Source of the DNA: an uncultured Bacilli bacterium
GTDB lineage: Bacteria; Bacillota_I; Bacilli_A; RF39; UBA660
Assembly (NCBI GenBank): GCA_947625395.1
Contig: CANQOD010000001.1
Location: 1 to 39,009, forward strand
DNA: 39,009 nt
Direction of reading: 5' to 3'
Shown: one piece after another, positions 5,466-36,703 of the stretch
Layout: every line of letters begins with the position of its first letter
How positions within the stretch are numbered: the first letter of the stretch is position 1
The notes under the pieces: model-generated
Seen by the model: only the letters and a program-made list of their open reading frames with translations
Told to the model about the DNA's origin: nothing
Databases searched by the model: none
Program-made: the position numbers and the translations under genes

Positions 5466-6212
5466 ATGAAAAAACAAAAAGAAAACTTGCCAGCGATTAA
5501 AGTATCCCATGTAACCAAAACATTTAATGTCTATTATGATAAAGCCAATACTTTAAAAGAACGCATCATCTTTTTGAATCGAAATCAAAAAGAAGTGCGA
5601 AAAGTCCTTAAAGATATTGATTTGGAAATTCAAAAAGGGGAAACAGTGGCGTTAATTGGTGTCAATGGAAGTGGAAAGTCTACCTTATTAAAATTAATGA
5701 CAAAAATTATCTATCCAAACAGTGGAACCATTAAAATTAATGGTAAATTGACTTCCTTACTTGAATTGGGAGCTGGTTTTCATCCGGATTTTTCAGGAAG
5801 AGAAAACATTTATTTTAATGCTTCTATTTTTGGATTGACGAAAACACAAATCGACCAACGTTTAGATGATATTATTGCTTTTTCTGAGTTGGGAGATTTT
5901 ATCGACAATCCAATTCGAACATATTCCTCAGGAATGTATATGCGTCTTGCGTTTGCAGTGGCCATCAATGTGGATGCAGATATTCTCTTAATTGATGAAG
6001 TCTTAGCGGTTGGTGACCAACATTTTCAAGAGAAATGCTTAAAGAAAATGAAAGAGTTAAAAAAAGAGGGCAAGACGATGGTGTTTGTCAGTCATTCCAT
6101 GGAATCTGTCAAATTTTTATGTGATAGGGCTGTTTGGCTTTACAATGGCCAAATTCGTGAAGATGGTCCGACAGAACAAGTAGTCAAAGATTATCTAAAG
6201 GAATGTTCGTAA
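5466..6212 (+). CDS. Polysaccharide/teichoic-acid type ABC exporter, ATP-binding subunit (TagH/Wzt-like, short form without C-terminal carbohydrate-binding domain)
   Basis: 248 aa. Walker A GVNGSGKST, ABC signature YSSGMYMRLAFA, Walker B ILLIDEVLAVGD, H-loop VSHS. Confidence 0.9.
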   Translation: MKKQKENLPAIKVSHVTKTFNVYYDKANTLKERIIFLNRNQKEVRKVLKDIDLEIQKGETVALIGVNGSGKSTLLKLMTKIIYPNSGTIKINGKLTSLLELGAGFHPDFSGRENIYFNASIFGLTKTQIDQRLDDIIAFSELGDFIDNPIRTYSSGMYMRLAFAVAINVDADILLIDEVLAVGDQHFQEKCLKKMKELKKEGKTMVFVSHSMESVKFLCDRAVWLYNGQIREDGPTEQVVKDYLKECS

Positions 6213-6220
6213 GAGGTGAA

Positions 6221-6997
6221 ATGATGAAATTAGTACAAGAGTTATATCAATATAGAGAATTTTTAAAAACATCTATTCGCAAAGAATTTAGAGGAAAATA
6301 TAAGAAATCATTTTTAGGAGTGCTTTGGTCTTTTATTAATCCCTTGTTACAACTCCTTGTTTATGCCCTTGTTTTTCCTTTTATCATGCGGGTTCAAGTC
6401 GAAAATTATACGATGTTTTTGATTGTAGCTTTAATTCCTTGGACTTTTTTCAATAGTACCGTTTGTCAAAGTACATCTACGATTATTGCTTCTTCTGGGA
6501 TTATTAAAAAAGTGTATTTTCCAAGAGCGATTTTGCCAATTTCAAACGTGACGAGCAATTTCTTAAACTTTTTAATTTCCTGCATCATTATTGTCGTTGC
6601 CTTATTGATTAGTGGGATTGGCATTGGCGCAAGTATTGTCTTTTTACCACTTGTGATGTTCTTACAGTATGTCTTTTCATTGGCCATTTCTTTCATTTTG
6701 TCTTCCATAACGGTCTATATTCGCGATTTGGAATATTTTGTCAATGTTTTGATGATGTTATGGTTCTACTTGACGCCAATTGTCTATGAAGTGAGTATGA
6801 TTCCGGAAAGATTTAGAAATATTTTGAATCTCAATCCAATGGTGCATATTATTACTGCTTATCGGGATATTCTATATTACCAAAAAGCACCGGATTTAAC
6901 CGCTTTGGGAATTCTATTTTTAATTTGCTTCTTTCTTCTTTGGATTGGTTACCATATTTTCCATAAATGTGAGAAGCGTTTTGCAGAAGAATTATAG
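6221..6997 (+). CDS. ABC-2 type exporter permease (TagG/Wzm-like)
   Basis: Contains about six TM segments and an N-terminal amphipathic region YQYREFLKTSIRKEFRGKYKKSFLGVLWSFINPL typical of ABC-2 permeases. The start is chosen at ATG 6221 (or 6224) after SD AGAGG at 6212-6216; the track start 6203 has no spacing to any SD. Confidence 0.85.
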   Translation: MMKLVQELYQYREFLKTSIRKEFRGKYKKSFLGVLWSFINPLLQLLVYALVFPFIMRVQVENYTMFLIVALIPWTFFNSTVCQSTSTIIASSGIIKKVYFPRAILPISNVTSNFLNFLISCIIIVVALLISGIGIGASIVFLPLVMFLQYVFSLAISFILSSITVYIRDLEYFVNVLMMLWFYLTPIVYEVSMIPERFRNILNLNPMVHIITAYRDILYYQKAPDLTALGILFLICFFLLWIGYHIFHKCEKRFAEEL

Positions 6998-7014
6998 TTG
7001 AAATGGGGGATAGA

Positions 7015-9921
7015 ATGAAAGATTTTGTGCATGCGAAAAAATTGCGAATTTTATGTTTATTGCTATTAGGAGGATGCATTGCTTTTTGCTGTTGTTTTTT
7101 CTTTTTGAGTCAAAATCCGGAAACATTTCATGATATGATTGTTGAATTTGTTGCTTACACAAAGACAAATAAATCCGTGGAAATCAACTGCTTTTGGTTC
7201 GTGACAGGAGTGGGCGTTCTTCTTTTAGTACTTGATTTTCTAAGAGATTTGTATCGGAAGAAAAAAGAAGAAAAGGAGAAAGTAGTGACGCCTTTTTTTG
7301 CTGTTGTGGTAACGATGATAACGGTGTTAGTGGGACATTACATCTTTACGATGACAACGCTTCCATTTGTGTTACTTGCTTTATGTTTGCTACTCCTTGC
7401 CCATAAGTGCATTCCTGGCAAAGAAGCGCATACACTGGTTGCTTTTTGTTTTCTTTTTTATGCTTTCTATGGTGTCTTTGTTTTCATCAATCATTTTGTT
7501 GAAGTTGCTGTTCAAAAAGAGTTGCTTTTCATTGCTTCTTTTTTAGTTACATTATGGTGTGTTTGTAAAGAAGAGAAAAAGGATATTTTAAGAAAACTCA
7601 TTTTAGTTGCCCAAATTCCGATTTCTTTGCCATTTCTTAATTTTCTTGTCGACAAGTATCTTTATCAAGGCAAGATGATGACACTTCCTCAGCCTTTCTT
7701 TGCTGCCCTTGTTTTTTGGAGTATACTCCTTGGGGTGATGGTCTTTAATCTCGTTCACTTGTTCCGTACTTGGAAAAAGAAAGATGCAACTTTAGACCAG
7801 CTTATCGCACTTCCATCCATTTTGACTATTTTTATGCTCAATTCTATTCAGGGAACGATTTATGGTACCGCAAATCTGATTACGATTCCTGATTATCATC
7901 ATCCAGGAGAAAATATTCAAGCGTTCCATCAGATATTTTTAAAAGGACAAACGCCGTATCAAACTTATATTCCTGTTTCAGGACTCTTTTCTGTCGTTAT
8001 CGGTTTTCTCTTGGAGCTCTGTGGAGGGGTGATGACGCATTATAAAAGCGCACTTGTTCTATTTGAATTGTTTTTCTCATTGATTACCATTTGGCTTGTA
8101 AGCCGACATCTTTCTAAAACAGAGAGCCTTTTGTTCTCGATGCTTGTCTTACTTGTCAGTTATAATCGCATCAGTCTTATCATGGCCATTCTTTTGATTC
8201 TGTTGTTCCCTCGACTGATTGCCAATAAGAATTGTTGGTTAAAAGTTTGGTTATGGCTCTGCTTTTTAGGAGGACTTTATTATCCGCTCTATGGCGCCGC
8301 AGTTTTATTAGGAACGCTTCCTTTTGGCATTGGCCAGTTCATTGGTTATTTAAAGTCTACAGATTTTAAAAAGCAACGCAAGCAAGTTTCCTTTTATGTT
8401 TGGTGGGGAGTTACATTGCTTCCGATTGTCCTTTGTATTCCCTTGCTCATTCGCATGTTAAAGCATACCATGACCTATTCTGGTCAATCGCTTTTAGCAG
8501 ACAGTATTTCTGTCTTTACGCAAGAATTGCCTGAGGGATTCTTACAAATTTTAGGACCAGGCAAATTGCTTGCTCAATTGTGCTATTGGTGTCTTCGTTA
8601 TGTCATTCCGGCTGGTGCGATATGGTTATTTACGTTGCTGTTATTAGGCTTGTTCTCTTCTTGTAAGAGTAAAAAAGATGTTTGGCAAAAAATCCAAACA
8701 CCAGCATTCTTATTACTCCCCGCAGGTCTATTCATTTTAGCAGTTTCTTATACGTTTACATTGATGCGGGCAGATTATCAGATGCTGTTATCACGAACAG
8801 GCAATATTATCACCATTGTCTGTGGGATGATTTATCTCATTATTGTCTTTAAAAACTATCAGAAAAGTTTATTTTATCCGATTACCTTTGGCGTTGTTTT
8901 AAGTATTTTAATCCAACTTGGTTCGTCACCGCTGACAATGGAAAAATATCAACTTGTTCATCATTACAATGTTCCAAGTGACTATACTTATGTAGAAGAG
9001 GGGGATTTACCAAGAATTGGAACTGGTTTTGTTTCTACAAAAGTATCTTATTTAACTTCGAAAGATGGGGAAGAATATACCATCGAAAATATGAAGCAAT
9101 TACACGATACTGCCCAAAAATTATTGCAGTATGACCCTGATTTAAGTTTTGTTCTTTATGGGCCACTTGCCCTTTATTATATTTTAGATTTGAAAACAGT
9201 TTCGCAACCCTCCATTGCCGCAATCAAATCGAAAAAAACATCAGAGGAATTTATTGAAGTGGTGAAACGGGAAAAGCCTGTGATTGGAAGATATCTTGCC
9301 GATACGCTTGCCAATTATTATATTTATCATTATTTAATGACGACCGATGATTATCAATATTCGAGTGAATATGATGTCTTCTTACCAACGGAATTGTATC
9401 AAAAGATTGATGGACAAAAAGAGGGAGAATGGAAGTGTGCCTCTCAGATAAAAACGAATGATTTAGGAAAAGCACCTGCTTCTTTAGGAGAATCTTATCA
9501 AACATTGAAGAAAAATTTTAAAGAAGTGAAGATGCAATATCAAGTCAAGACAAATCGGGATGAAAAAACAGCATCTTATACGTATCAATTTACCACTCCT
9601 ATTCAAAAAGATGAGGTCGATTTTCTCTATCTAGAAGTGGATACGAATCGAGATTTTTACAATGAAAAATCGCTGCGCAATCGTTTACAAATTGACCTGA
9701 CCAATATGGACATTCCAGTGACTGTTTCCTGGGGTGGAGAAGAAAAAATAACGGCGCTATTGAGTCGTGGACGCCTCCTCATTGGCTTAGGAGTTGATTG
9801 TGACTGGTTACTTCAAAGTCATTCATCCTTACAAATTCAAATCGAGGGAATAGAACCACAATATCAAGTGGCGATAAAGAAAATGCAATTTTTGAAATTA
9901 AAAGAAGCAAAAGGGAAATAA
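7015..9921 (+). CDS. Large polytopic membrane protein with ~320-aa C-terminal non-membrane domain, paralog A (unknown family; possibly GT-C-like)
   Basis: 968 aa counted from the M at 7015, which aligns with the paralog B start MKxFVHxKK. It has many hydrophobic helices through roughly residue 640, then a hydrophilic C-terminal domain. It starts within ~20 nt of the permease stop. It is collinear with 9931-12810. Confidence 0.8.
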   Translation: MKDFVHAKKLRILCLLLLGGCIAFCCCFFFLSQNPETFHDMIVEFVAYTKTNKSVEINCFWFVTGVGVLLLVLDFLRDLYRKKKEEKEKVVTPFFAVVVTMITVLVGHYIFTMTTLPFVLLALCLLLLAHKCIPGKEAHTLVAFCFLFYAFYGVFVFINHFVEVAVQKELLFIASFLVTLWCVCKEEKKDILRKLILVAQIPISLPFLNFLVDKYLYQGKMMTLPQPFFAALVFWSILLGVMVFNLVHLFRTWKKKDATLDQLIALPSILTIFMLNSIQGTIYGTANLITIPDYHHPGENIQAFHQIFLKGQTPYQTYIPVSGLFSVVIGFLLELCGGVMTHYKSALVLFELFFSLITIWLVSRHLSKTESLLFSMLVLLVSYNRISLIMAILLILLFPRLIANKNCWLKVWLWLCFLGGLYYPLYGAAVLLGTLPFGIGQFIGYLKSTDFKKQRKQVSFYVWWGVTLLPIVLCIPLLIRMLKHTMTYSGQSLLADSISVFTQELPEGFLQILGPGKLLAQLCYWCLRYVIPAGAIWLFTLLLLGLFSSCKSKKDVWQKIQTPAFLLLPAGLFILAVSYTFTLMRADYQMLLSRTGNIITIVCGMIYLIIVFKNYQKSLFYPITFGVVLSILIQLGSSPLTMEKYQLVHHYNVPSDYTYVEEGDLPRIGTGFVSTKVSYLTSKDGEEYTIENMKQLHDTAQKLLQYDPDLSFVLYGPLALYYILDLKTVSQPSIAAIKSKKTSEEFIEVVKREKPVIGRYLADTLANYYIYHYLMTTDDYQYSSEYDVFLPTELYQKIDGQKEGEWKCASQIKTNDLGKAPASLGESYQTLKKNFKEVKMQYQVKTNRDEKTASYTYQFTTPIQKDEVDFLYLEVDTNRDFYNEKSLRNRLQIDLTNMDIPVTVSWGGEEKITALLSRGRLLIGLGVDCDWLLQSHSSLQIQIEGIEPQYQVAIKKMQFLKLKEAKGK

Positions 9922-9930
9922 GGAGGCCTT

Positions 9931-12810
9931 ATGAAAAGTTTTGTACACTTAAAAAAAATAAAAATATTGGGTGTTTTATTTGCCTTTGGGATGCTAGGAA
10001 TGGCTCTTTGTTTTTTACTTGCAGGCCAAACACCAGAAACGTTTCATGATATCATTGCTGAAGCCTTAGTGATTTTAAAAAATAATAAATCTATGGAGCT
10101 CAATTGCTTTTGGATAATTGTCTTCGTTGGCAGTTTCGTTTTACTGATAGATATGATTCGAACAAGGAAAAAGAGAAGAGAAGAGAAACAACCAGTTTTT
10201 TCTTCTTTCTCGCTGGTTCTTTTAGCACTTGCAACTGGAATGGTTCTCTATTATTTCTTGACGATGCATGTTCCTCTTTTCCTTTTAACCACTTTCTTTC
10301 TTTTATTACTATCGCACCACTTTCTGAAAGGAAAAGAAGCAAAAATTTGTCTGATAAATTGTTTTTTATTTTATTTCTTCTATGGTGGACTGAGCTTGCT
10401 TAATTTTTCTTTTCATGCGCTTTTTATTTCGAAAGAATTCTTATTGCTCCTTTCTTTCCTTATTACTTTATGTCTTTTGAAATTAGAGCAAAAGAAGCCT
10501 ATTTTAGAGAATTGTATTCTCTTGAGTCAAACTACAATTCCACTCATTCTTTTGAATTATTTAGTGGATTGTTATCAATATCAAGGGCAAGAAATCCATG
10601 TTCCACTTCCATTTTTTGCAAAGCTTTTCTTTGGAACCTTACTGCTTAGTTTTCTTGTTTACAATTTTTATTATCTTTATAAAAACTGGAGTCGAAAAGA
10701 AAAAAATATCAATCAACTTCTGTCATTTGCAACCATCATCACAATTTTTATCATCCATTCGGTTTCCATGAATACCAGTGCGATTTTACCAACTGATTTA
10801 CATCACACAGGTGAAAATATTCAGGCTTTTCATCAAATTTTTAGTAAAGGACAGATTCCTTATCAAAACTACATTCCTGTATCGGGTCTTTATTCCGTCT
10901 GCGTTGGTTTTATTTTAGAACTTTGTGGTGGCGTTATGATGCATTATAATGTTGCGGTTGCGATTTATACAACGATTTTTGCCATTCTTACCATTGTTTT
11001 AATTCACTGTCATTTAGACAAAAAAGCAACTTTATTATTGAGTCTATTGTTTCTTTTTGTAAACTATAACCGCGTTTATCTCATTTTAATCTCATTGCTG
11101 ATTTTATTATTACCTAAGCTACGAGCAAAAAAGAATTTGTGGTTAAAGGTTTGGATATGGTTATGCTTTTTAGGAGGACTTTATTATCCCGTTTATGGCG
11201 TGTCAGTTTTACTTGGAACTTTGCCATTTGCCCTTTATCAAATGATTAGTTTCATTCGTTCTAAAGATGGAAAAAGCAAGTTACATACTTTCCGGTTTTA
11301 TCTCGAATGGTTTGTTGTGCTTCTACCAATCTTCTTGGCAGTTCCTATCTTGTTGCACTTACTCAAACATCTTTTAGTCTACTCTTCACAATCCTTATTG
11401 GCAGAGGGTGCGTCTGTTTTTGCCCAAGAAGTGCCTGAGGGATTATTCCAAATTTTTGGTGGAGGACAATTTCTTGCCAAATTAGTCTATTATTGTTTAC
11501 GTTATATGATTCCTGCTTTAGCGATTTGGATTTTTGTTCTCTTACTCTTACAGTTTTTTCAAGATTGCAAGCACAAGAAAGATGTTTTTAAAATTTTTGC
11601 TCATCCGAAATTTTTCTTAGTTGTTTCAGGACTTCTCCTTTTATTAGTAGGGTATCATTTTACCCTTTTACGTGCTGATTCGGGACGATTATTATCACGA
11701 ACTGGCTATTTAATTGAAATTGTTTGTGGCATTTTGTTTTTCATGATTACAGTTCGATATGAGCGTCCGAATCCTTTCTCAGCCATTGTCCTTGGAATAA
11801 TGGTGGCCATCTTGGCTGTACTGGGTGATTCGCCTATTACATTTCCAAATTATACGCTTCAAGCCCATTATACGATTGAAGAGGACTATCAGTTGATTGA
11901 AAATAGTCCACTTCCAAGACTGGGAACTGGCTTTGTTTTGAAAGAAGATGCCTACTTTACCGTGTTATCCAAGAAAATTACCTTTCAAGAATTAAATACC
12001 TTATCTAACAATGCCCAAAAATTGCTTCAATATAATCCGGATTTAAAATTTGTTTTATATGGACCTTTGGCAGCTTACTATATTTTAGATTTAACAACAA
12101 CTGCACAGCCATCCATTTATGCGATTAAGAGTCAAGAAGCAAGCGAAGAGTTTTTAACGATAATTCAAAAAGAAAAGCCTGTTGTGGGTACGTTTATTGC
12201 GAATGCAGAACAGAGCTATTATATTTATCATTATTTAATGACAACGGATGATTATCTTTATGCAGAAGAATATGAGGCTTTTTTACCTAGAGAACTTTAT
12301 CAGAAGATTTATGGAAATACGGTAGGGAGTGATAAACGTCTTGCCAACTTCACCATTGCTGATTTAGGTGTTTCATCGTCTGTGTTTGGTAATTCTTATG
12401 AAGCTTTAAAAACAAGATTTACGAAAGTCCAACCAACAATGCAGTCTATTTGTACGCGACAAGATAAATTGTATACATGTACCTATACGTTTTCAAAAGC
12501 ACTTGCCAAAGAAGAGGTTGATTTTCTCTATTTGGAAGTTGATACCAATCGTGATTTGTACAATGAAAGGGCATTTGCAAATCTTTTGCGCATTGACTTT
12601 ACCAATTCAGATATCCCTGTGAAAGTCACGTGGGGGGGGGAAGAAATAAAATGTTTATTATTCCAAGGAAAACTTTTGATTGCACTTGGAGTGAATAGTG
12701 ATTGGTTGTTATCAGATAAAGAGAAGATTTCAATTCAAATCGAGGGAATCGAACCGCAATATCAAGTGGCGATTTCCAAAATCGAATTTTTAAAACTGAA
12801 AACAGCATAG
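9931..12810 (+). CDS. Large polytopic membrane protein, paralog B of 7015-9921 (unknown family)
   Basis: 959 aa with SD AGGAGG before the ATG at 9931. Blocks shared with paralog A include PETFHD, HH[PT]GENIQAFHQIF.KGQ.PYQ.YIPVSGL, LKVW.WLCFLGGLYYP.YG, YYIYHYLMTTDDY, EVDFLYLEVDTNRD and IQIEGIEPQYQVAI. Confidence 0.8.
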   Translation: MKSFVHLKKIKILGVLFAFGMLGMALCFLLAGQTPETFHDIIAEALVILKNNKSMELNCFWIIVFVGSFVLLIDMIRTRKKRREEKQPVFSSFSLVLLALATGMVLYYFLTMHVPLFLLTTFFLLLLSHHFLKGKEAKICLINCFLFYFFYGGLSLLNFSFHALFISKEFLLLLSFLITLCLLKLEQKKPILENCILLSQTTIPLILLNYLVDCYQYQGQEIHVPLPFFAKLFFGTLLLSFLVYNFYYLYKNWSRKEKNINQLLSFATIITIFIIHSVSMNTSAILPTDLHHTGENIQAFHQIFSKGQIPYQNYIPVSGLYSVCVGFILELCGGVMMHYNVAVAIYTTIFAILTIVLIHCHLDKKATLLLSLLFLFVNYNRVYLILISLLILLLPKLRAKKNLWLKVWIWLCFLGGLYYPVYGVSVLLGTLPFALYQMISFIRSKDGKSKLHTFRFYLEWFVVLLPIFLAVPILLHLLKHLLVYSSQSLLAEGASVFAQEVPEGLFQIFGGGQFLAKLVYYCLRYMIPALAIWIFVLLLLQFFQDCKHKKDVFKIFAHPKFFLVVSGLLLLLVGYHFTLLRADSGRLLSRTGYLIEIVCGILFFMITVRYERPNPFSAIVLGIMVAILAVLGDSPITFPNYTLQAHYTIEEDYQLIENSPLPRLGTGFVLKEDAYFTVLSKKITFQELNTLSNNAQKLLQYNPDLKFVLYGPLAAYYILDLTTTAQPSIYAIKSQEASEEFLTIIQKEKPVVGTFIANAEQSYYIYHYLMTTDDYLYAEEYEAFLPRELYQKIYGNTVGSDKRLANFTIADLGVSSSVFGNSYEALKTRFTKVQPTMQSICTRQDKLYTCTYTFSKALAKEEVDFLYLEVDTNRDLYNERAFANLLRIDFTNSDIPVKVTWGGEEIKCLLFQGKLLIALGVNSDWLLSDKEKISIQIEGIEPQYQVAISKIEFLKLKTA
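12632..12640 (+). repeat. G9 homopolymer inside the paralog B coding sequence (candidate slipped-strand contingency tract)
   Basis: Read directly: acg tgg ggg ggg gaa gaa, encoding T-W-G-G-E-E. Paralog A encodes the same residues as tgg ggt gga gaa gaa (9730-9744) with no long run. Confidence 0.9.
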
Positions 12811-16444: not shown

Positions 16445-16495
16445 AAGGAAGCAAGTTCACTTTGACGAGAACATACTTCCTTTGAAATTAGGAGA

Positions 16496-16528
16496 AAGAT
16501 TGATAGTTGGATATCAATCTTTTTTTTG
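16496..16528 (+). terminator. Rho-independent terminator after the secreted-protein gene
   Basis: A perfect 10-bp stem AAGATTGATA (16496-16505) / TATCAATCTT (16512-16521) with a 6-nt loop, followed by a T-run. Confidence 0.85.
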
Positions 16529-16608
16529 AAAAAAAATAAGAAAAAGTAAAAAGAAAAACATTTCAATAAAAAATCGTCGAATTTCCTCGAAAAAATTGCA
16601 AATTCCTA

Positions 16609-16640
16609 TTGACTTGGGGGGGGGTAGTTTATTGTATGAT
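16609..16640 (+). promoter_or_regulatory. Candidate promoter with a G9 tract (16616-16624) in the -35/-10 spacer
   Basis: -35 TTGACT (16609-16614) and -10 TATGAT (16635-16640). The spacer is 20 nt as sequenced and contains nine consecutive G. SD GAGGTG precedes the ATG at 16703. Confidence 0.5.
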
Positions 16641-16702: not shown

Positions 16703-18160
16703 ATGAGAAAAAGGAAAGTCTTCTTTAAGAAACGATATTTACGCTATTGGATGCTATTTGTTATTGGGATGTTGTTGCTGCTTTGTCGTTCTCTTTACAG
16801 TTTAAAATATCCCTCTTTATATGCGGAAGATGGCACGTGGATTTCTCTTCTTTTAAAAGATGGCTTTCTTCATACCGCACTGCATGTACGATATGATTAT
16901 TTTGAATTTGTCATTGTTCTATTCCAACAACTTGCCTTGACATGTGCCCAGCTTTTTTGTAAAGGAGATTTAAGAACCATTCCTATTTTTATCACTGTTA
17001 TCTCTTGCGTCTATTATACTTTTGTGGCGATGTTACCAGCAATGACCATGGGCAATCGTTTGAATTGGCTTGCGAAAACTTTCTTGTTTTTTGCGATTTT
17101 ATGCTTACCACTTGGTCAGTCTTATACGGAAATACTTGGAAGAACTTTACAGTGTCATATGCTCGTTTGGGTGATTGTTTTTTGCTTCCTCGTCTATCGT
17201 TATGACCATAAAAACGACCCGACAAAAAAATGGAAAATCTTTTTGATTGACTTTCTCTTGATTTTTTTGATTCCCTCTTTTCCAGCTGCTATCATCGGAT
17301 ATGGAATTTATGGCATCATCGAACTCAAAGACATTCTTCAAGCCTATTTCATAGGTCCTCAAAAGAAGCTTTCGTTTTCTAGGATAAAAGAAATGCTAAA
17401 ACAAGAATGGAAAAAAAGTTCTATTCGTTCCTTGGTCGTGAGTGGTCTTATCATCGTTGTGATGGGATGCATTCTTTTCTTTCGAATCAAAGCAACAAAT
17501 CAAGGAATACCTCTTTCTCAGCAAGAACCTTTTCCATACCAAAAACTACCAGAAATTCTCTTACGTGTTTTCTGTTATCCACTTGTCTTTGGAATTTATC
17601 ATTCCATGAATCATTTGAAAGCTTTATTTATCGTGGGTCTGACAGTTGCTTTGTTTGTTTTCTTTTTCTTTCAACTTGCGAAAGAACATCGAAAATTTTA
17701 TCTTCTTACACTTCTTTCTTGGCTGCTTTCCGGCTTTGTTATCATCGTGACTAGAACCTCCATTTTTGGCTTTTTGAATCATTATCAGGTGAGTTATCCC
17801 GACCGGTATTATATGATTAGCAACGTCTGTCTCTTCTTTCCGATTGCCGTTCTTTTAAGTGAGAAAAAAGCGCTCTTTCAAATGGTTCGTGCCATTGTTA
17901 TTTTCTATTTTTGTTATTCCATTTTCGTTTATGGAGGTCGAATTTTCACCTTTTATAAAAATGAAAATGACATAGGTGGCATTCATGATGGAACTTGGCG
18001 GGAGGCCTTACAGAAGAGTTATGATGAAAATAAGAAGACCAAAGATGGCAAGTACTATCTTGTTGAGTTAGAACCTATCACCTGGTGGTGTGAAATTCCC
18101 GTTCAAAATGTAGAACGGTCCGTTGATAAAAAAAGGCATACAAGAAGCCTTTTGAAATAG
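16703..18160 (+). CDS. Polytopic membrane protein, unknown function (possible glycan-modifying GT-C-like or acyltransferase-like enzyme)
   Basis: 485 aa with roughly 11-12 hydrophobic helices. The first extracytoplasmic segment carries an acidic motif (PSLYAEDGTWISLL). The C-terminal ~70 aa are hydrophilic. Confidence 0.7.
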   Translation: MRKRKVFFKKRYLRYWMLFVIGMLLLLCRSLYSLKYPSLYAEDGTWISLLLKDGFLHTALHVRYDYFEFVIVLFQQLALTCAQLFCKGDLRTIPIFITVISCVYYTFVAMLPAMTMGNRLNWLAKTFLFFAILCLPLGQSYTEILGRTLQCHMLVWVIVFCFLVYRYDHKNDPTKKWKIFLIDFLLIFLIPSFPAAIIGYGIYGIIELKDILQAYFIGPQKKLSFSRIKEMLKQEWKKSSIRSLVVSGLIIVVMGCILFFRIKATNQGIPLSQQEPFPYQKLPEILLRVFCYPLVFGIYHSMNHLKALFIVGLTVALFVFFFFQLAKEHRKFYLLTLLSWLLSGFVIIVTRTSIFGFLNHYQVSYPDRYYMISNVCLFFPIAVLLSEKKALFQMVRAIVIFYFCYSIFVYGGRIFTFYKNENDIGGIHDGTWREALQKSYDENKKTKDGKYYLVELEPITWWCEIPVQNVERSVDKKRHTRSLLK

Positions 18161-18281: not shown

Positions 18282-18707
18282 ATGTCAGAAAAAATCATAA
18301 AACTTATCAAACAAGCTTTCCATTTTTTTGCTATTTCCGGTGTAGGATGGATTGTCGATATGTGTATCTATACGATTTTATCAAAATGGATACCGGTCAC
18401 AATAGCCAATATCATTAGTTCAACGACAGCAGTTACCTATGTGTACACTGTTTCAACGAAAAAGATATTTGAAAATAAAAGCAATATCAATATTCGAACC
18501 AAATACATTTTCTATATCATTTATCAGATGGCTTTGATTCTATTATCGAGTGTGGTCATTAGTGGTCTTTCTCATCTTTTACTCGTACATTTTCGAAAAG
18601 TTAAATTCATCACTAAATATGCGAAGATATGTGCTAAAATATTGATAACACCATTTACAATGGTGATGAATTTTCTTTTCATGAAGATATTAATTGAAAA
18701 AATTTAA
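18282..18707 (+). CDS. GtrA-family small membrane protein (putative polyprenyl-phosphate-sugar flippase)
   Basis: 141 aa with four TM helices. The N-terminus FHFFAISGVGWIVDMCIYTIL is typical of GtrA-like proteins, and the gene sits next to a GT2 gene. Confidence 0.75.
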   Translation: MSEKIIKLIKQAFHFFAISGVGWIVDMCIYTILSKWIPVTIANIISSTTAVTYVYTVSTKKIFENKSNINIRTKYIFYIIYQMALILLSSVVISGLSHLLLVHFRKVKFITKYAKICAKILITPFTMVMNFLFMKILIEKI

Positions 18708-18719
18708 GGAGTGTGACAT

Positions 18720-19514
18720 ATGGAGAAAATAATGGTATTTATACCCATGTATAATTGTGAAAAGCAAGTGACAAGAGTGCTAGAACAATTCGATAAGCAA
18801 GTTTGTAAGTATATCCAAGAAATTGTTGTCATCAACAATCGCAGTACTGATAACGGAGAAGAGAAAGTGCGTGCAGTCATCAAGGAGGGAAAAATACCTA
18901 CTCAGATAACTTTGCTAAGAAACGAAGAAAATTATGGGCTTGGTGGTTCTCATAAAGTTGCTTTTAATTATGCCCTTGAAAATGATTATGATTATGTGAT
19001 TGTTTTACATGGGGATGATCAGGGAAGTATTCGAGATGTTTTACCATACATCAAAAGCAAAGAATATCAAAAATATGATTGCATGTTAGGGGCTCGTTTT
19101 ATGAAAGGGTCAAAAATTGATGGATATTCTAAATTAAGAATTTTTGGAAACAAAGTATTCAATACTTTATTTTCCCTTGTTCTTCATGAAAAAGTGTATG
19201 ATTTAGGTTCTGGACTTAATATGTATAAAATGGAATCATTAAAGTCAAAGTACTATCTTCAATTGCCTGATACGCTTTATTTTAATGATGTTATGATTCT
19301 AATGCAAAAATATCGCAACATGAATGTAAAGTTTTTTCCAATCAGTTGGAGAGAAAAAGATCAAGTATCGAATAATAAATTAATGTCGTTTTCAATGAGT
19401 TTATTACAAATGTTGCGAAAGTATATTTTTTCTAAGAAAAAGTATCTCAATAGTGATATGAGAACAAAAATCATTGATGAATACAAGGCTGAAATAATTG
19501 AAAGGAGTAAATAA
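18720..19514 (+). CDS. Family 2 glycosyltransferase (DPM1/polyprenyl-phosphate GT-like catalytic domain, no C-terminal TM helices)
   Basis: 264 aa. SD AAGGAG lies 6 nt before the ATG. Motifs are MVFIPMYNCEKQV, VVINNRSTDNGEEK and VLHGDDQGS. Confidence 0.75.
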   Translation: MEKIMVFIPMYNCEKQVTRVLEQFDKQVCKYIQEIVVINNRSTDNGEEKVRAVIKEGKIPTQITLLRNEENYGLGGSHKVAFNYALENDYDYVIVLHGDDQGSIRDVLPYIKSKEYQKYDCMLGARFMKGSKIDGYSKLRIFGNKVFNTLFSLVLHEKVYDLGSGLNMYKMESLKSKYYLQLPDTLYFNDVMILMQKYRNMNVKFFPISWREKDQVSNNKLMSFSMSLLQMLRKYIFSKKKYLNSDMRTKIIDEYKAEIIERSK

Positions 19515-20539: not shown

Positions 20540-21274
20540 ATGAATCAAGTACATTTAATTATGCCAATGGGTGGCGTAGGTTCTCGCTTTAAAAACATGG
20601 GCTATCAGCTTCCAAAACCTTTGATTGAAATTCATGGAAAACCCTTTTTCTATTGGGCAACGCAATCCATTACCAAGTTTTTAGAAGTCGATATCACGTT
20701 TGTTGTATTACAAGAACATGTTTTGAAGTTTCAAATTGACCAAGAAATTAAAAAGTATTATCCAAATGCAAAGATTGTCATTATCAAAGAAGTATTAAAC
20801 GGAGCTGTTTTAACTTGTTTAGAGGGAATCAAAGAGATACATGACCAAAATCCAATTATCTTTAATGACTGTGACCATATGTTTATGGCAAAGGATTTTT
20901 ACGAGGCCGTGAAACAACAAACAGAATTAGATGGATTACTGTTGTCTTTTCCATCGCAAGAAAACAAATTCAGCTATTTAGAAGTGAATCAAGACAATCT
21001 TGTTGTCCGGACCGTTGAAAAAGAAGTGATTAGTCATCATGCTATTTGTGGCGTGTACTATTTTAAAAATAAAGATATTTTTGAAAAGGTAGTACAAACT
21101 TATTTAAAACAATGCAATTATCAAGAATATTTTATTAGTGGCGTTTATAATACTTTGATATCTTCCGGTGGCAGAGTAGGCTATTATGATGTTGATATGC
21201 ATGTTTCTTTTGGAACTCCGGAAGAATATGAAGAAGCTGTCAAAAGTCGTCATTTTGAGGATTTGATAGGATGA
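20540..21274 (+). CDS. Sugar-phosphate (or phospho-alcohol) nucleotidyltransferase
   Basis: The N-terminal motif IMPMGGVGSRFKNMGYQLPKPLIEIHGKPF is a GxGxR...K signature of the NTP_transferase fold. The ATG at 20540 directly follows the upstream TAA. Confidence 0.75.
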   Translation: MNQVHLIMPMGGVGSRFKNMGYQLPKPLIEIHGKPFFYWATQSITKFLEVDITFVVLQEHVLKFQIDQEIKKYYPNAKIVIIKEVLNGAVLTCLEGIKEIHDQNPIIFNDCDHMFMAKDFYEAVKQQTELDGLLLSFPSQENKFSYLEVNQDNLVVRTVEKEVISHHAICGVYYFKNKDIFEKVVQTYLKQCNYQEYFISGVYNTLISSGGRVGYYDVDMHVSFGTPEEYEEAVKSRHFEDLIG

Positions 21275-23802: not shown

Positions 23803-23888
23803 AAAAAAAGAAGAATCAAAAAGAAATGGTGGATGTAAGAAAAAAGATAGCCTATCGCTTACAAAAACTGTTTACGAGGAGTATAAAG

Positions 23889-24818: not shown

Positions 24819-24826
24819 GAGGGCAT

Positions 24827-33685: not shown

Positions 33686-36241
33686 ATGAAACGTAGTGAA
33701 GTAGACCGTCAAAAATTAAGTCCAATGATGCAACAGTATCTTGACATTAAAGAACAATATGAAGATAGTATTTTGTTCTTTCGTATTGGCGATTTTTATG
33801 AAATGTTCTTTGAAGATGCCCTGCTTGCATCACGAGAGTTAGAGTTAACTTTAACAGGAAAACAAGCAGGAATTGGCGAAAAGGTGCCCATGTGTGGCGT
33901 TCCATTTAAAGCTTACAGTGGCTATTTAGATAAGTTGATTGAAAAAGGTTATAAAGTGGCCATTTGTGAACAATTAGAGGACCCGAAATCAACCAAAGAA
34001 ATGGTCAAGCGGGATGTCATTCAAGTCGTGACCAAAGGCACGCGCCTTGATAGAACGATTGATGCGAAAGAAAATAATTTCATTGGTAGTATTTATGATT
34101 TTGAGTATTGTTATGTGTTGTCTTATGCGGATATTTCTACGGGTGAATTTTATAGTATGCTCTTGAATGATGATGAGGCAATTGTCTTACGAGAAATTAC
34201 AAGACTCTCTTTAAAAGAAGTGATTGTCAATAGTAAATTTGACCGGACTTTGCTGTTGAAATTGCGTCAAAATTATCAACTGATGGTGACCATTACGGAT
34301 GATTTATATCAAGAAGAAGACTATGCCGCCATTTATAAAAAGATGAAAGATATTCGCATTGTAACAGGCGTGGAACATCTTCTTTACTATCTTTTAGATA
34401 CCAAGAAAGGAGATTTATCACATTTACAAGAAGTTGTTTTACTACAAGAAAAAGAGCATCTGATTTTAAGTGGCAATACCATGTATAATCTAGAACTTGT
34501 AGAAACAATGCGTACGAGAGAAAGACAGAATAGTTTGTTGTGGTTTTTAGATAAGAATAAAACAGCCATGGGGAGTCGTTTCTTAAAACAAGCCATTGAA
34601 AGTCCGTTGACCAATCGGGAAGCGATTGAAAGACGTTATCGTTTTGTGGATACTTTAAGAGTTCAGTTTATTTTACGGGACGATTTACGCGAAGCACTAG
34701 ACCGTGTCTACGACTTAGAACGATTGTCAGGCCGAGTGGCTTATGGAAACTTGAATGCAAGAGATTTATTACAGTTAAAGACTTCCTTGAAAGCGTTACC
34801 TGAAATTCAAAGAATCTTAGAAGAGTTATCTTATGACCGTGCCATTGAAACTTTTGATGAGCTTTATGCACTCTTAGAAAAATCGATTTGTGAAGAAGCA
34901 CCGATTTCAATCAAAGAGGGTTCTTTAATTAAGGAGGGCTATCATGAAGAGCTCGATTCGTTGCGGCATATTCGAAGTGGTTCTAAAGATTTCTTACTGC
35001 AATTTGAACAAGAAGAAAAAGATAGGACAGGCATTCGAACGTTAAAAGTTGGATACAATAAAATATTTGGCTATTATATTGAAGTGAGCAAAGGACAAAT
35101 TCCACTTATTAAGGAGGAGTTTGGCTATGAAAGACGACAAACCCTTGCCAATTGTGAACGGTTCACAACCCCTCTTTTAAAAGAAAAAGAAAATATTATT
35201 TTAGGGGCAGAAGAGAAAATTATCCAATTAGAATATCAATTGTTCATGGAAATCAGAGAGGTTGTAAAACGGTACATTGCTCCTTTACAAAAGACAGCGA
35301 AAATTTTAGCAGAGGTGGATATGCTCCAGGCATTTTCCCAAATTGCAGATGATTATCATTTCGTTCGTCCTGAATTAACCGAGAAAAAAGAGATTCGTAT
35401 GATAGAAAGTAGGCATCCAGTGATTGAAAAGGTGATGCAAGACAAGTATGTTTCGAATGATATTGTGATGGATGAAAATACAGATATTCTGTTAATCACA
35501 GGACCGAATATGGCTGGGAAGTCCACTTATATGCGCCAGCTAGCCATTATTGTTATCTTAGCGCAAATTGGTTCTTTTGTTCCTTGTACTTCTTGTAAAA
35601 TGCCTATCTTTGATAAGATTTTCACGCGAATTGGAGCGAGTGATGATTTGGTAAGTGGTGAATCTACTTTTATGGTAGAAATGAAAGAGGCCAATGAGGC
35701 ATTACAGGAAGCAACTGAGAAGAGCTTGATTCTGTTTGATGAATTAGGTCGAGGAACCGCAACGTATGATGGAATGAGTCTTGCTCAAGCGATTTTAGAA
35801 TACATTCATGATAAAGTTCACTGCAAAACTTTATTCTCTACGCACTACCATGAATTGACTACTTTGGAAGAAGCACTTCCTCATCTTAAAAATGTACATG
35901 TTTCTGCGCAAGAAGAAGAGGGCAAATTGATTTTTCTTCACAAAGTCAAAAAAGGTGCTGTCGATAAGAGCTATGGAATCAATGTGGCTTCACTTGCACT
36001 TTTACCAACAAGTTTAATTCAACGAGCCAAAGAAATTCTCTCGATTTATGAAACACAAGAGCAACATGAAAAAGTCTTTACGCAAACGAGTTTGTTTTCT
36101 TTAGAAGAAGAGTCCGTGAAAGAAGAAAAGAATCCGTTAAAAGAACGTTTACAAGAAGTAAATCCACTTGAAATGACGCCGATTGAAGCTTTAAACTTTC
36201 TATATACTTTAAAAGAAGAAAGCAAAAAAGATGCAGAATAA
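33686..36241 (+). CDS. mutS: DNA mismatch repair protein MutS
   Basis: 851 aa. The N-terminus reads LSPMMQQYLDIKEQYEDSILFFRIGDFYEMFFEDA. Walker A is GPNMAGKSTYMRQ, followed by STFMVEM and DELGRGT. Confidence 0.97.
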   Translation: MKRSEVDRQKLSPMMQQYLDIKEQYEDSILFFRIGDFYEMFFEDALLASRELELTLTGKQAGIGEKVPMCGVPFKAYSGYLDKLIEKGYKVAICEQLEDPKSTKEMVKRDVIQVVTKGTRLDRTIDAKENNFIGSIYDFEYCYVLSYADISTGEFYSMLLNDDEAIVLREITRLSLKEVIVNSKFDRTLLLKLRQNYQLMVTITDDLYQEEDYAAIYKKMKDIRIVTGVEHLLYYLLDTKKGDLSHLQEVVLLQEKEHLILSGNTMYNLELVETMRTRERQNSLLWFLDKNKTAMGSRFLKQAIESPLTNREAIERRYRFVDTLRVQFILRDDLREALDRVYDLERLSGRVAYGNLNARDLLQLKTSLKALPEIQRILEELSYDRAIETFDELYALLEKSICEEAPISIKEGSLIKEGYHEELDSLRHIRSGSKDFLLQFEQEEKDRTGIRTLKVGYNKIFGYYIEVSKGQIPLIKEEFGYERRQTLANCERFTTPLLKEKENIILGAEEKIIQLEYQLFMEIREVVKRYIAPLQKTAKILAEVDMLQAFSQIADDYHFVRPELTEKKEIRMIESRHPVIEKVMQDKYVSNDIVMDENTDILLITGPNMAGKSTYMRQLAIIVILAQIGSFVPCTSCKMPIFDKIFTRIGASDDLVSGESTFMVEMKEANEALQEATEKSLILFDELGRGTATYDGMSLAQAILEYIHDKVHCKTLFSTHYHELTTLEEALPHLKNVHVSAQEEEGKLIFLHKVKKGAVDKSYGINVASLALLPTSLIQRAKEILSIYETQEQHEKVFTQTSLFSLEEESVKEEKNPLKERLQEVNPLEMTPIEALNFLYTLKEESKKDAE

Positions 36242-36292
36242 GTTTGTCTTTGCAAGAAAGTTAAAATTTGATATGATAAGAAAGGTGAGAGC

Positions 36293-36703
36293 ATGAAAAA
36301 TAGAAGTGAACTAAGAAATAGTATTATCAAAATTTTATACCAAATTTTTATTTATGAAGAGATTAAAACACCTTATCAGGTAGAGGATATTATTCAAGAA
36401 GAACTGGAAATTGAAAATGATTTTGTCAAGGAAATGGTTCATGGTATTTTAGAAAAGCAAGAAGAAATTAAACAGCTGGCCAATCAATATTTGGTCGACT
36501 GGGAATATCGACGCTTATCAAAAGTCGACCAAGCGATTTTAGCTCTTGGCATTTATGAACTAAAGTATACGGATACGCCAAGTATTGTTGCGATTAATGA
36601 AGCAGTGGAGTTATCGAAATCTTATAGTGATGAAAAGGTGACAAAAATGATAAATGGGGTATTAGATACGATTTATCATAGTGAAGAGGGAAGAGAGGAA
36701 TGA
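36293..36703 (+). CDS. nusB: Transcription antitermination factor NusB
   Basis: 136 aa with SD AAAGGTGA. Conserved NusB core: RRLSKVDQAILALGIYELKYTDTPSIVAINEAVELSKSYSDEKVTKMINGVLD. Confidence 0.92.
   Translation: MKNRSELRNSIIKILYQIFIYEEIKTPYQVEDIIQEELEIENDFVKEMVHGILEKQEEIKQLANQYLVDWEYRRLSKVDQAILALGIYELKYTDTPSIVAINEAVELSKSYSDEKVTKMINGVLDTIYHSEEGREE

What the first reader, a model, noticed from the sequence alone, without database searches (positions are those of the whole stretch)
12632..12640. G9 homopolymer inside paralog B, while paralog A encodes the same residues without a run - candidate translational phase-variation switch
The sequence acg tgg ggg ggg gaa gaa encodes T-W-G-G-E-E. Paralog A encodes W-G-G-E-E as tgg ggt gga gaa gaa (9730-9744), so the run in B arises purely from synonymous codon choice. 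This window is visibly AT-rich, and by eye I found no other G or C run longer than 5 apart from the second G9 at 16616-16624. Under a composition-only model with G at roughly one sixth of bases (my rough estimate), a G9 is expected around 1e-7 per position, far below one per 39 kb. Two occurrences are therefore not plausibly chance. I read the consequences directly from the sequence. Loss of one G gives tgg ggg ggg aag aaa taa, a stop two codons later. Gain of one G runs into tag after about 20 codons. Either slip removes the last ~55 residues, including the most conserved C-terminal block IQIEGIEPQYQVAI. This is the classic architecture of a contingency locus controlling a surface-glycan modifier.
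Basis: partly seen in the sequence, partly recalled or inferred. Interest (0 to 1): 0.72.

Follow-up and report, generated by a model that had tools for sequence, protein, structure and literature searches.

The report
Poly-G slippage tracts in a cell-wall sugar locus
A run of nine G's near the end of a large membrane-protein gene, with a second run of nine G's in a neighbouring promoter, probably lets an uncultured gut bacterium randomly switch parts of its cell-wall sugar machinery, a well-known bacterial trick that could not be confirmed here because no second copy of this organism's DNA exists in public data.

Summary
G9 lies at 12632-12640 inside a 959-aa ORF (paralog B), spelling W901-G902-G903-E904. 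Paralog A spells the same residues as tgg ggt gga gaa. G8 gives a 905-aa product and G10 a 922-aa product. Two G9 runs with no run of 6-8 is still unlikely (P about 1e-5 to 3e-3).

The second G9 (16616-16624) lies between a TTGACT and a TATGAT hexamer, after a terminator and ahead of a 485-aa membrane-protein gene. Two related gut-Bacilli assemblies carry G9 or G10 in the same promoter-spacer position, one directly upstream of a paralog-B homologue.

The tract is 94% of the way into the gene. A confident model puts it in a hairpin turn of a carbohydrate-binding-like beta-sandwich, so a frameshift removes four of nine strands and the domain's most conserved motif.

Best reading: slipped-strand phase variation of the C-terminal class, paired with a promoter-spacer switch. 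Tract-length polymorphism could not be tested, because no second copy exists in any collection. The protein family is undescribed, and GT-C membership was not supported. This is a new member of a known kind.

The parts
12632..12640 (+). G9 homopolymer in codons 901-904 (W-G-G-E) of paralog B; candidate slipped-strand switch
   Evidence: G8 gives 905 aa and G10 gives 922 aa. It sits in a beta-hairpin turn between strands 896-901 and 904-909 of the AF2 model.
9931..12810 (+). Paralog B: a 959-aa polytopic membrane protein (helical to about residue 630) with a soluble region of about 320 residues ending in a beta-sandwich; undescribed family
   Evidence: AF2 pLDDT 92.3, pTM 0.92. No Pfam, NCBIfam or PDB sequence match. 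The beta-sandwich resembles CBM or galactose-binding-like modules.
12641..12810 (+). The 55 codons lost after any +1 or -1 slip: strands 904-909, 914-917, 930-938 and 946-956, plus the family's most conserved soluble-domain motif
   Evidence: truncations; strands; W925 invariant; L915, L916, P918, G920 at 90% or more across 50 homologues.
7003..9921 (+). Paralog A (972 aa, 51% identical), immediately upstream in the same operon; the equivalent W-G-G-E-E site at 9730-9744 is interrupted (tgg ggt gga gaa gaa)
16616..16624 (+). Second G9, intergenic, inside a promoter-like spacer
   Evidence: iid expectation of a G9 or C9 in the window's 1846 nt of intergenic DNA is 2e-4.
16609..16640 (+). Promoter-like element: TTGACT (16609-16614), T, G9, TAGTTTATTG, TATGAT (16635-16640). 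The spacer is 20 nt at G9, or 15 nt to the alternative TATTGT at 16630-16635.
   Evidence: Not reported by the 16-18 nt scanner because the spacer is out of range at G9. Same layout as L001 and L008.
16488..16529 (+). Terminator-like hairpin with a U-run after the upstream gene, so the next gene needs its own promoter
   Evidence: MFE -29.7 kcal/mol for 16440-16545, z = -5.75.
16703..18160 (+). 485-aa membrane protein with about 10 TM segments, unknown family; the gene downstream of the G9 promoter
   Evidence: Its homologues sit between an ABC exporter and MBOAT+AlgX genes.
18282..19514 (+). [quoted passage not shown]
   Evidence: The same pair flanks homologues of paralog B in other organisms.
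5466..6997 (+). ABC-2 type polysaccharide exporter (ATPase and permease) immediately upstream of paralogs A and B
33686..36241 (+). Intact mutS (851 aa) followed by nusB and xseA, not mutL; relevant to homopolymer stability

Best explanation
The G9 at 12632-12640 is a hypermutable homopolymer. Slipped-strand mispairing during replication changes its length by one base at a rate far above the point-mutation rate.

At G9 (or any length that keeps the frame) paralog B is made full length. At G8 or G10 it is made as a 905- or 922-residue protein. That product keeps the whole membrane domain but lacks four of the nine strands of its C-terminal, probably extracytoplasmic, carbohydrate-binding-like beta-sandwich. 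This is 'C-terminal phase variation'. The likely consequence is loss of, or a change in, recognition of the cell-wall polysaccharide acceptor. The constitutive paralog A, which has no tract, stays active.

A second G9, 4 kb downstream, sits in the spacer of the promoter of a 485-aa membrane-protein gene in the same locus. It would change the -35/-10 spacing, which is transcriptional phase variation. Together the two switches would produce mixed populations with different cell-wall glycan decoration, a hedge against phages and host immunity.

Shown: the tracts, their positions, the reading-frame consequences, their statistical excess, the structural location, the recurrence of promoter tracts in relatives, and the gene context.

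Inferred: actual length variation, the effect of truncation on function, promoter activity at each tract length, the enzymatic role of the proteins, and the selective benefit.
For: - Tract and frameshift consequences are verified.
- The only two G/C runs of 6 or more in 39 kb are both G9. The spectrum is bimodal (9 runs of 5, none of 6-8, 2 of 9), with 0.011 expected runs of 9 or more. Markov P(2 or more) is 1e-5 to 3e-3. The codon-aware P for the coding tract is 0.044.
- About 1.0 Mb of related low-GC sequence has only two runs of 9 or more. One of them, L008, is again a promoter-spacer tract: TTGCAA-9 nt-G10-TATAAT, ahead of an anchored 320-aa protein.
- L001 (25% GC) has a single G/C run of 6 or more in 22.8 kb. 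It is a G9 in cTTGT-G9-TTACTTTATGC-TATAAT, 41 nt upstream of the probable start of the 44%-identical homologue of paralog B. The same gene family is therefore tied to a G9 in a second organism through a different mechanism.
- The second window tract lies between TTGACT and TATGAT, after a terminator.
- The region removed by a slip holds the invariant W925 and the GKLLIPLG-like motif, and four strands of a confidently modelled beta-sandwich that resembles CBMs.
- The context is a cell-wall polysaccharide locus with a GtrA and GT2 pair. That pair is conserved next to the family elsewhere.
- Precedents: C-terminal poly-G variation (PMC2823697, PMC5320596); promoter-spacer tracts such as fetA and porA (PMC5320596); homopolymer switching in a Firmicute, inlA (PMC2831843); extracytoplasmic CBMs on GT-C enzymes (PMC8035078).
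Against: - No length polymorphism was observed. The locus exists once in all collections.
- The coding tract alone is only modestly improbable (P about 0.04).
- It lies at 94% of the ORF, so the truncated protein may keep its activity.
- Homologues at 32-44% identity have no long run at this site, and most of their loci have none at all.
- mutS is intact, so mismatch repair may damp slippage.
- At G9 neither candidate -10 gives a 16-18 nt spacer, so the promoter assignment is consensus-based only.
- The protein's function is unknown, and the GT-C fold was not confirmed.
Confidence: 0.55

Rival explanations
1. The tract is incidental. GGG GGG arose by drift at a W-G-G-E hairpin turn. It may be somewhat mutable, but it is not maintained by selection as a switch, and frameshifted cells are simply purged.
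For: - Codon-aware chance is about 1.5% at this site and about 4.4% window-wide, which is not negligible across a genome.
- A homologue has G6 at the same site (TGG GGG GAT), showing the site drifts toward G runs.
- The tract is far from the 5' end.
- No polymorphism data exist.
Against: - Runs of 6-8 are depleted in the window and in relatives (0 observed against about 2 expected in the window; 3 against 8.5 and 15 against 35 in background sets). Long G runs are therefore normally purged, yet a G9 persists in a conserved domain.
- A second G9 lies 4 kb away in a promoter spacer.
- G9 and G10 promoter tracts recur in relatives, including one upstream of the homologous gene.
Confidence: 0.25
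2. The tract varies, but the result is a change of isoform rather than ON/OFF. The truncated protein keeps its membrane-domain activity and only loses or alters binding of the acceptor glycan, so the switch tunes specificity or processivity.
For: - 904 of 959 residues, including every transmembrane helix and all invariant membrane-domain residues (E56, Q200, R381, the YYP motif), lie upstream of the tract.
- This is how the C-terminal class is described in Helicobacter and Neisseria (PMC2823697, PMC5320596).
- CBM-like domains on GT-C enzymes are proposed to bind the acceptor (PMC8035078).
Against: Removing four of nine strands of a beta-sandwich usually unfolds the domain, and the misfolded protein may be degraded, which amounts to OFF. 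No experimental data exist either way.
Confidence: 0.2
3. Assembly or consensus error. The true sequence has a different length or an interruption, and the run reflects homopolymer miscalling or a poly-G chemistry artefact.
For: - The record is a single draft contig, and its sequencing platform is unknown.
- A contig-end C15/C9 artefact does occur in a related assembly (L086).
Against: - The run is internal and keeps a 959-codon frame.
- It aligns residue-for-residue with paralog A through the C-terminus.
- Independent assemblies show the same G9 and G10 promoter tracts.
Confidence: 0.05
4. Slippage at the RNA or ribosome level rather than the DNA level. RNA polymerase or the ribosome slips on the G9, so one genotype makes both full-length and truncated protein at a fixed ratio.
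For: Homopolymers of 9 or more are known sites of transcriptional slippage (own knowledge). Both alternative frames terminate quickly, giving defined short isoforms.
Against: - Efficient transcriptional slippage is documented mainly for A and T runs (own knowledge).
- No stimulatory structure or alternative-frame ORF of any length follows the tract.
- This idea does not explain the promoter tracts.
Confidence: 0.05

Closest known systems
C-terminal phase variation by 3'-located poly-G tracts (Helicobacter canadensis, Neisseria gonorrhoeae; PMC2823697, PMC5320596)
   Same: A poly-G run in the last fifth of an ORF. Length changes switch the C-terminal sequence or length rather than blocking translation early. 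These tracts cluster in glycan-related loci and co-occur with promoter and 5' tracts.
   Different: In those species, tract-length variation was seen in reads or between strains; here it was not testable. Those are Gram-negative Proteobacteria and Campylobacterota; this is an uncultured low-GC gut Bacilli. Here 55 residues and half a folded domain are lost, more than the few residues typical there.
Poly-G contingency genes of Campylobacter jejuni and Neisseria glycan loci (e.g. pgtA, PMC2193922; lgt genes; C. jejuni capsule and LOS genes, own knowledge)
   Same: A low-GC genome in which G runs of 8 or more are rare and concentrated in surface-glycan loci. Intragenic tracts cause ON/OFF frameshifts. 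A paralogous gene lacks the tract.
   Different: The classic cases place the tract early or mid-gene in identified glycosyltransferases. Here the tract is late, the protein family is undescribed, and mutS is present (C. jejuni lacks mutS/mutL-type repair; own knowledge).
Transcriptional phase variation by homopolymers in promoter spacers (Neisseria fetA poly-C and porA poly-G, PMC5320596; Mycoplasma hyorhinis vlp poly-A, own knowledge)
   Same: The second G9, and the L001 and L008 tracts, lie between -35-like and -10-like hexamers, so a length change alters the spacing.
   Different: The promoter elements here are consensus matches only. At G9 the spacer is 20 nt (or 15 nt), which predicts low activity in the sequenced state. 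No expression data exist.
Phase-variable gtr (GtrA/GtrB/GtrC) O-antigen glycosylation operons of Salmonella and its phages (PMC2909390)
   Same: Stochastic ON/OFF control of a GtrA plus GT2 plus polytopic membrane protein system that decorates a surface polysaccharide outside the membrane.
   Different: The mechanism there is epigenetic (Dam/OxyR), not repeat slippage. The hosts are Gram-negative, and GtrC proteins are recognisable GT-C enzymes.
Multi-component transmembrane glycosylation systems of Gram-positive cell-wall polymers (CsbB/YfhO/GtcA, GtlA/GtlB, Gac/Csd systems; PMC8035078)
   Same: Gene context (a GT2 and GtrA pair next to a large polytopic membrane protein). An extracytoplasmic carbohydrate-binding-like domain, as proposed for AftD and YfhO. 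Location within a cell-wall polysaccharide locus with an ABC-2 exporter.
   Different: No sequence or significant structural similarity to YfhO, PMT_2, AftD, PglB or any other GT-C enzyme was found. No phase variation by repeats is described for these systems in the papers I read.

Membership tests
Simple-sequence-repeat contingency locus (translational phase variation) | Uninterrupted homopolymer of about 8 nt or more inside an ORF | tested here: met
   G9 at 12632-12640 in ORF 9931-12810.
Simple-sequence-repeat contingency locus (translational phase variation) | A +1 or -1 length change causes premature termination | tested here: met
   G8 gives 905 aa and G10 gives 922 aa, against 959 aa.
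Simple-sequence-repeat contingency locus (translational phase variation) | Tract more frequent than composition and codon usage predict | tested here: met
   Codon shuffle P = 0.044 for the coding tract. For two G9: Markov P(2 or more) 1e-5 to 3e-3, and empirical background P = 0.003. The coding tract is only modestly significant on its own.
Simple-sequence-repeat contingency locus (translational phase variation) | Tract length varies within populations or between strains, including ON and OFF lengths | not testable with these tools
   The cluster has one member. There is no homologue above 51% identity, and there were no hits in the genome or metagenome scans. No read data are available.
Simple-sequence-repeat contingency locus (translational phase variation) | Tract near the 5' end, so that the OFF state is a null | tested here: not met
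   The tract starts at codon 901 of 959, which is 94% of the ORF.
C-terminal phase variation (Snyder et al. 2010 class) | Repeat in the last fifth of the ORF; the alternative frames give different, short C-termini while most of the protein is still made | tested here: met
   The three frames give 959, 905 and 922 aa, and all membrane helices lie upstream of the tract. The class is defined in PMC2823697 and PMC5320596.
Transcriptional phase variation by a promoter-spacer homopolymer (second G9) | Tract located between -35 and -10 elements of the promoter of a downstream gene | tested here: inconclusive
   TTGACT-T-G9-10 nt-TATGAT lies after a terminator and 63 nt before the ATG. L001 and L008 have the same layout. 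The hexamers are consensus matches only, and the spacer is 20 nt at G9.
Transcriptional phase variation by a promoter-spacer homopolymer (second G9) | Expression level depends on tract length | not testable with these tools
   Needs reporter fusions or RNA data.
[quoted passage not shown] | Polytopic membrane protein with an extracytoplasmic domain, encoded next to a GT2 (Und-P-sugar synthase type) and a GtrA-type flippase | tested here: met
   About 17 hydrophobic segments and a soluble C-terminal region of about 320 residues. GT2 and GtrA lie within 6 kb in the window and next to or near the homologues in L001, L002, L085, L088, L093 and L094. The outside location of the domain is inferred from the positive-inside rule only.
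[quoted passage not shown] | Structural or sequence similarity of the membrane domain to known GT-C enzymes | tested here: not met
   No Pfam or NCBIfam hit in any of the 50 members. The PDB profile search was empty. Foldseek's best GT-C hits were AftD (TM 0.25) and PglB (TM 0.22, probability 0.23), and no hit had E of 1e-3 or better.
[quoted passage not shown] | Conserved acidic residue in the first extracytoplasmic loop | tested here: inconclusive
   D40 (90% or more) and E56 (invariant) lie in or next to the loop between helices 5-31 and 53-79. This is suggestive but not specific.

The most novel reading that the evidence does not exclude
A lineage of uncultured, small-genome, Mollicutes-like gut Bacilli runs a poly-G 'phasome'. 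G9-G10 tracts are placed either in promoter spacers or late in coding regions. They stochastically switch an undescribed family of about 960-residue membrane proteins, whose membrane fold has no solved relative and which carry a carbohydrate-binding C-terminal domain. These proteins decorate the cell-wall polysaccharide. A mismatch-repair arrangement in which mutS is never followed by mutL may help. If so, gut commensals known only from metagenomes would diversify their surface the way Campylobacter and Neisseria do, and MAG consensus sequences would hide that heterogeneity.
Probability: 0.3. Interest if true: 0.6.

Novelty: new member of a known kind. Interest (0 to 1): 0.42.

Why it matters
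If the tracts do vary, an uncultured gut Bacilli would be using homopolymer slippage to diversify its cell-wall polysaccharide. Slippage switches of this kind are documented mainly in Gram-negative mucosal pathogens and mycoplasmas. That bears on phage-host dynamics and immune recognition in the gut. It also bears on how metagenome-assembled genomes are read, because a single consensus tract length hides ON and OFF subpopulations, and OFF states get annotated as pseudogenes. The finding also flags an undescribed, confidently foldable family of membrane proteins in cell-wall glycan loci of Clostridia and Bacilli as a target for functional work. The mechanism itself is not new.

Tried and rejected
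- **Strain-level polymorphism.** A protein search found nothing above 51% identity other than the window itself. The exact-sequence clusters of paralog B, the 485-aa protein and MutS each have one member. The window's contig is not indexed for context look-up. The GTDB species scan with paralog B gave no relative. Metagenome scans with variable-length G patterns gave zero hits for the window's coding tract and for the L001 promoter tract.
- **A possible frameshift difference between samples.** The neighbour of P0010 is called as 475 aa in L085/L086 and 531 aa in L087. The DNA is identical, so this is only a start-codon calling difference.
- **Function of paralogs A and B.** Pfam at relaxed thresholds, Pfam on all 50 members, NCBIfam and a PDB profile search gave nothing meaningful. 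Foldseek on the full model and on a separate membrane-domain model gave no significant global hit, so GT-C membership was dropped.
- **The 485-aa protein.** It is not related to the 482-aa and 478-aa neighbours in L001. Its few homologues have no upstream tract.
- **Riboswitch or other RNA in the intergenic region.** No Rfam match in the window.
- **Other repeat classes in the window.** Only short, low-score tandem repeats.
- **Sequencing artefact.** Rejected because the tract is internal, in frame and aligned with the paralog. Contrast the contig-end C15/C9 in L086.
- **A brute-force Markov simulation** timed out. I replaced it with analytic expectations.
Full report
**1. The observation**

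The sequence at 12626-12646 reads tcacg tgg ggg ggg gaa gaa ata, with nine G's at 12632-12640. A regex scan of the 39,009-base window (34.7% G+C) finds only two G or C runs of six or more. Both are G9, and the other is at 16616-16624.

The tract lies in ORF 9931-12810 (959 aa, 'paralog B'). It starts at the second base of codon 901 and spells W901-G902-G903-E904. ORF 7003-9921 ('paralog A', 972 aa) is 51% identical over its whole length. It spells the same residues as tgg ggt gga gaa gaa at 9730-9744.

Editing the tract in silico gives WGGKK-stop (905 aa) for G8 and a 922-aa product with a 20-residue foreign tail for G10. Both lose the last 55 residues.

**2. Is it more than chance?**

Markov models of order 1-4 predict 0.015-0.08 runs of 9 or more per window, or 0.005-0.019 once the two tracts are masked. 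It is the wrong null for a coding site, though.

- GGG makes up 12.1% of the window's glycine codons, so a W-G-G-E peptide becomes G9 about 1.5% of the time.
- Shuffling synonymous codons within each gene produced at least one G/C run of 9 or more somewhere in the window's coding sequence in 4.4% of 5000 trials. The coding tract alone is unusual but not extraordinary.

The pair of tracts is significant.

- P(2 or more) is 1e-5 to 3e-3 under the Markov models.
- The run-length spectrum is bimodal: 285, 53, 9, 0, 0, 0, 2 for lengths 3 to 9. Extrapolating the decay gives 0.011 expected runs of 9 or more.
- As an empirical background I used 1.0 Mb of low-GC sequence around mutS from 53 related Firmicutes. 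It holds only two runs of 9 or more, giving P = 0.003 for the window.
- Runs of 6-8 are under-represented in all data sets. Long G/C runs therefore seem to be purged normally, which makes the survivors more notable.

**3. The setting**

The window is a whole NCBI contig. MutS is at best 70% identical to MutS of uncultured gut 'Bacilli', 'Tenericutes' and 'Mycoplasma sp.' MAGs from humans, rabbits and ruminants. The organism is therefore an uncultured, low-GC gut Bacilli with no close sequenced relative.

Bases 1-27,700 form a cell-wall polysaccharide locus:
- several GT2 genes and a GT4;
- an ABC-2 exporter (5466-6997);
- paralogs A and B, 9 nt apart, with B preceded by AAGGAGG;
- a 1186-aa glucosaminidase with Ig-like repeats;
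- a 485-aa protein with about 10 TM segments;
- GtrA, a GT2, an epimerase, a nucleotidyltransferase, an LPG_synthase_TM-type protein, a HAD phosphatase, another GT2 and an O-antigen-ligase-like protein.

**4. The protein carrying the tract**

Paralogs A and B belong to a family of about 960-residue proteins found mainly in gut Clostridia and Bacilli metagenomes. All are annotated as hypothetical, and the nearest non-self relative is 44% identical. None of 50 members hits any Pfam model, NCBIfam has nothing, and a PDB profile search is empty.

An AlphaFold2 model built on 50 homologues is very confident (pLDDT 92.3, pTM 0.92). It has a helical membrane domain to about residue 630. A soluble region follows, ending in a nine-strand beta-sandwich (strands 830-833, 837-844, 847-858, 865-872, 896-901, 904-909, 914-917, 930-938, 946-956).

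Foldseek against the PDB finds no significant global match. The local matches all fall on the beta-sandwich and are carbohydrate-binding or galactose-binding-like modules: CBM86, accessory domains of endo-beta-N-acetylglucosaminidases, a GH29 fucosidase and APC10. A separate model of the membrane domain (pLDDT 90.1) has no significant relative either. The best GT-C hits are PglB at TM 0.22 and AftD at TM 0.25.

I therefore do not file the protein as a GT-C glycosyltransferase. [quoted passage not shown]
- a conserved association with a GT2 and GtrA pair (L001, L002, L085, L088, L093, L094);
- conserved acidic residues near the first outward loop (D40, E56);
- the CBM-like domain.

Basic residues cluster in loops 80-91 and 545-558 and at the N-terminus. 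By the positive-inside rule this puts the C-terminal domain outside the cell. That placement is an inference from the sequence.

**5. What a slip would do**

The W-G-G of the tract is the turn of the hairpin between strands 896-901 and 904-909. A frameshift removes strands 904-909, 914-917, 930-938 and 946-956, which is four of nine. It also removes the best conserved motif of the soluble domain across the family: W925 is invariant, and L915, L916, P918 and G920 are at 90% or more. The whole membrane domain is retained.

This is not the classic 5'-proximal ON/OFF design. It matches the 'C-terminal phase variation' class described for poly-G tracts in Helicobacter canadensis and Neisseria gonorrhoeae (PMC2823697, PMC5320596). 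Whether the truncated protein is inactive, unstable or merely altered cannot be decided here.

**6. The second tract and the relatives**

The second G9 lies in the 258-nt gap between the glucosaminidase gene and the 485-aa ORF. Two hairpins follow the upstream stop codon, the second with a U-run (z = -5.75), so the 485-aa gene needs its own promoter.

The tract lies in TTGACT(16609-14)-T-G9-TAGTTTATTG-TATGAT(16635-40). At G9 the spacer is 20 nt, or 15 nt to an alternative TATTGT. That is why the 16-18 nt scanner missed the site. It also suggests the promoter is in a low state in the sequenced genome, which is an inference.

The same design recurs in relatives.
- **L001.** This is the locus of the 44%-identical homologue, from a 25%-GC MAG. 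It has exactly one G/C run of 6 or more in 22.8 kb, a G9 in cTTGT-G9-TTACTTTATGC-TATAAT with a TGn-extended -10. The -10 ends 41 nt upstream of the probable start (ATG 9935) of the homologue, whose N-terminus then aligns with paralog B.
- **L008.** This rabbit-gut MAG of the same lineage has TTGCAA-9 nt-G10-TATAAT ahead of an anchored 320-aa protein next to mutS.

So G9 and G10 tracts in promoter spacers recur in this lineage. The paralog-B family is linked to a G9 in two organisms by two different routes, promoter and coding. This is the strongest comparative support for function.

Against it, homologues at 32-36% identity and the homologues of the 485-aa protein have no long tracts. The equivalent site reads SWKEK in P0003 and SWGD (G6) in P0005.

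**7. What could not be shown**

The defining property of a contingency locus is tract-length variation, and it is untested. Paralog B, the 485-aa protein and MutS each form one-member clusters among 15 billion proteins. The contig is not indexed for context look-up. Four collection scans found no second copy of the locus or of either promoter tract. An apparent frameshift difference between samples near a distant homologue turned out to be a start-codon calling difference.

**8. Mismatch repair**

mutS is intact, which argues against a Campylobacter-like repair-less background. But mutS is followed by nusB and xseA. None of the 23 loci of this lineage has mutL within the fetched flanks of mutS, whereas 56 of the other loci in the set do. 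Whether mutL is elsewhere or missing is unknown.

**9. Verdict**

The most likely explanation (about 0.55) is that both G9 tracts are slipped-strand switches. One is a C-terminal, translational switch on paralog B. The other is a promoter-spacer switch on the neighbouring membrane-protein gene. Together they would diversify cell-wall glycan decoration.

The main rival (about 0.25) is an incidental, unselected run. A fifth-level possibility is that the switch changes isoform rather than turning the gene off. Assembly error and RNA-level slippage are unlikely.

The mechanism is well known, so this is a new member of a known kind in an unstudied lineage, attached to an undescribed protein family. 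Interest is moderate.

Noticed in passing
window 16609-16640: The second G9 (16616-16624) sits in a promoter-like spacer, TTGACT-T-G9-10 nt-TATGAT. It follows a terminator and lies 63 nt before the ATG of a 485-aa membrane protein of unknown family. At G9 the spacer is 20 nt, which predicts low promoter activity in the sequenced state.
   Followed up: yes
L001 9864-9893 (GCA_947623665.1, contig CANQHJ010000013.1): The only G/C run of 6 or more in 22.8 kb of 25%-GC DNA is a G9 in a promoter spacer with a TGn-extended TATAAT. The -10 ends 41 nt upstream of the probable true start (ATG 9935, not the called 10001) of the 44%-identical homologue of paralog B.
   Followed up: yes
L008 105-136 (rabbit-gut 'uncultured Bacilli' MAG, CANRBB010000075.1): TTGCAA-9 nt-G10-TATAAT lies upstream of a 320-aa protein with a hydrophobic N-terminal anchor, next to mutS. 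This is a third promoter-spacer poly-G tract in the lineage.
   Followed up: partly
window 7003-12810; alignment A1: Paralogs A and B belong to an undescribed family of about 960-residue membrane proteins (76 clusters found, mostly gut Clostridia and Bacilli metagenomes). No Pfam or NCBIfam model matches. The AlphaFold models are very confident, yet the membrane domain has no significant structural relative in the PDB. Conserved residues include D40, E56, a D289-x-H291-H292-x-x-E295 motif, R381, and a Y418-Y419-P420 motif.
   Followed up: partly
window 33686-37953; L005-L024, L036, L076: mutS is followed by nusB and xseA. None of the 23 loci of this lineage has mutL within the flanks of mutS, whereas 56 of the other loci in the set do. 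mutL may be elsewhere or absent, which would affect homopolymer stability.
   Followed up: partly
window and loci L005-L084: G/C runs of 6-8 are about 2- to 3-fold rarer than a geometric decay from lengths 3-5 predicts (window 0 against about 2; lineage loci 3 against 8.5; other low-GC loci 15 against 35). This suggests general purging of mutable G/C runs.
   Followed up: partly
L002, L085, L088, L093, L094: A conserved gene module surrounds the family in other organisms: GT2 (~262 aa), LPG_synthase_TM (~286 aa), a ~480-aa gene, a ~131-aa HAD/PNKP-like gene, a ~529-aa gene, the ~965-aa family member, a ~241-aa gene, then GtrA. The window holds the same parts in a different order, with the LPG_synthase_TM domain in a 638-aa protein (21271-23187).
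   Followed up: no
L086 17495-17520: C15 and C9 runs at the very end of a metagenome contig look like a two-colour-chemistry poly-G read artefact. They are a useful contrast to the internal, in-frame tract of the window.
   Followed up: no
L059 13078-13086: A C9 run in a Tissierellia MAG near mutS. Its context was not examined.
   Followed up: no
window 23826-26527: ORF 24677-26527 (616 aa, no family) overlaps the preceding GT2 ORF (23826-24818) by about 140 nt as listed. The real start is probably further downstream.
   Followed up: no
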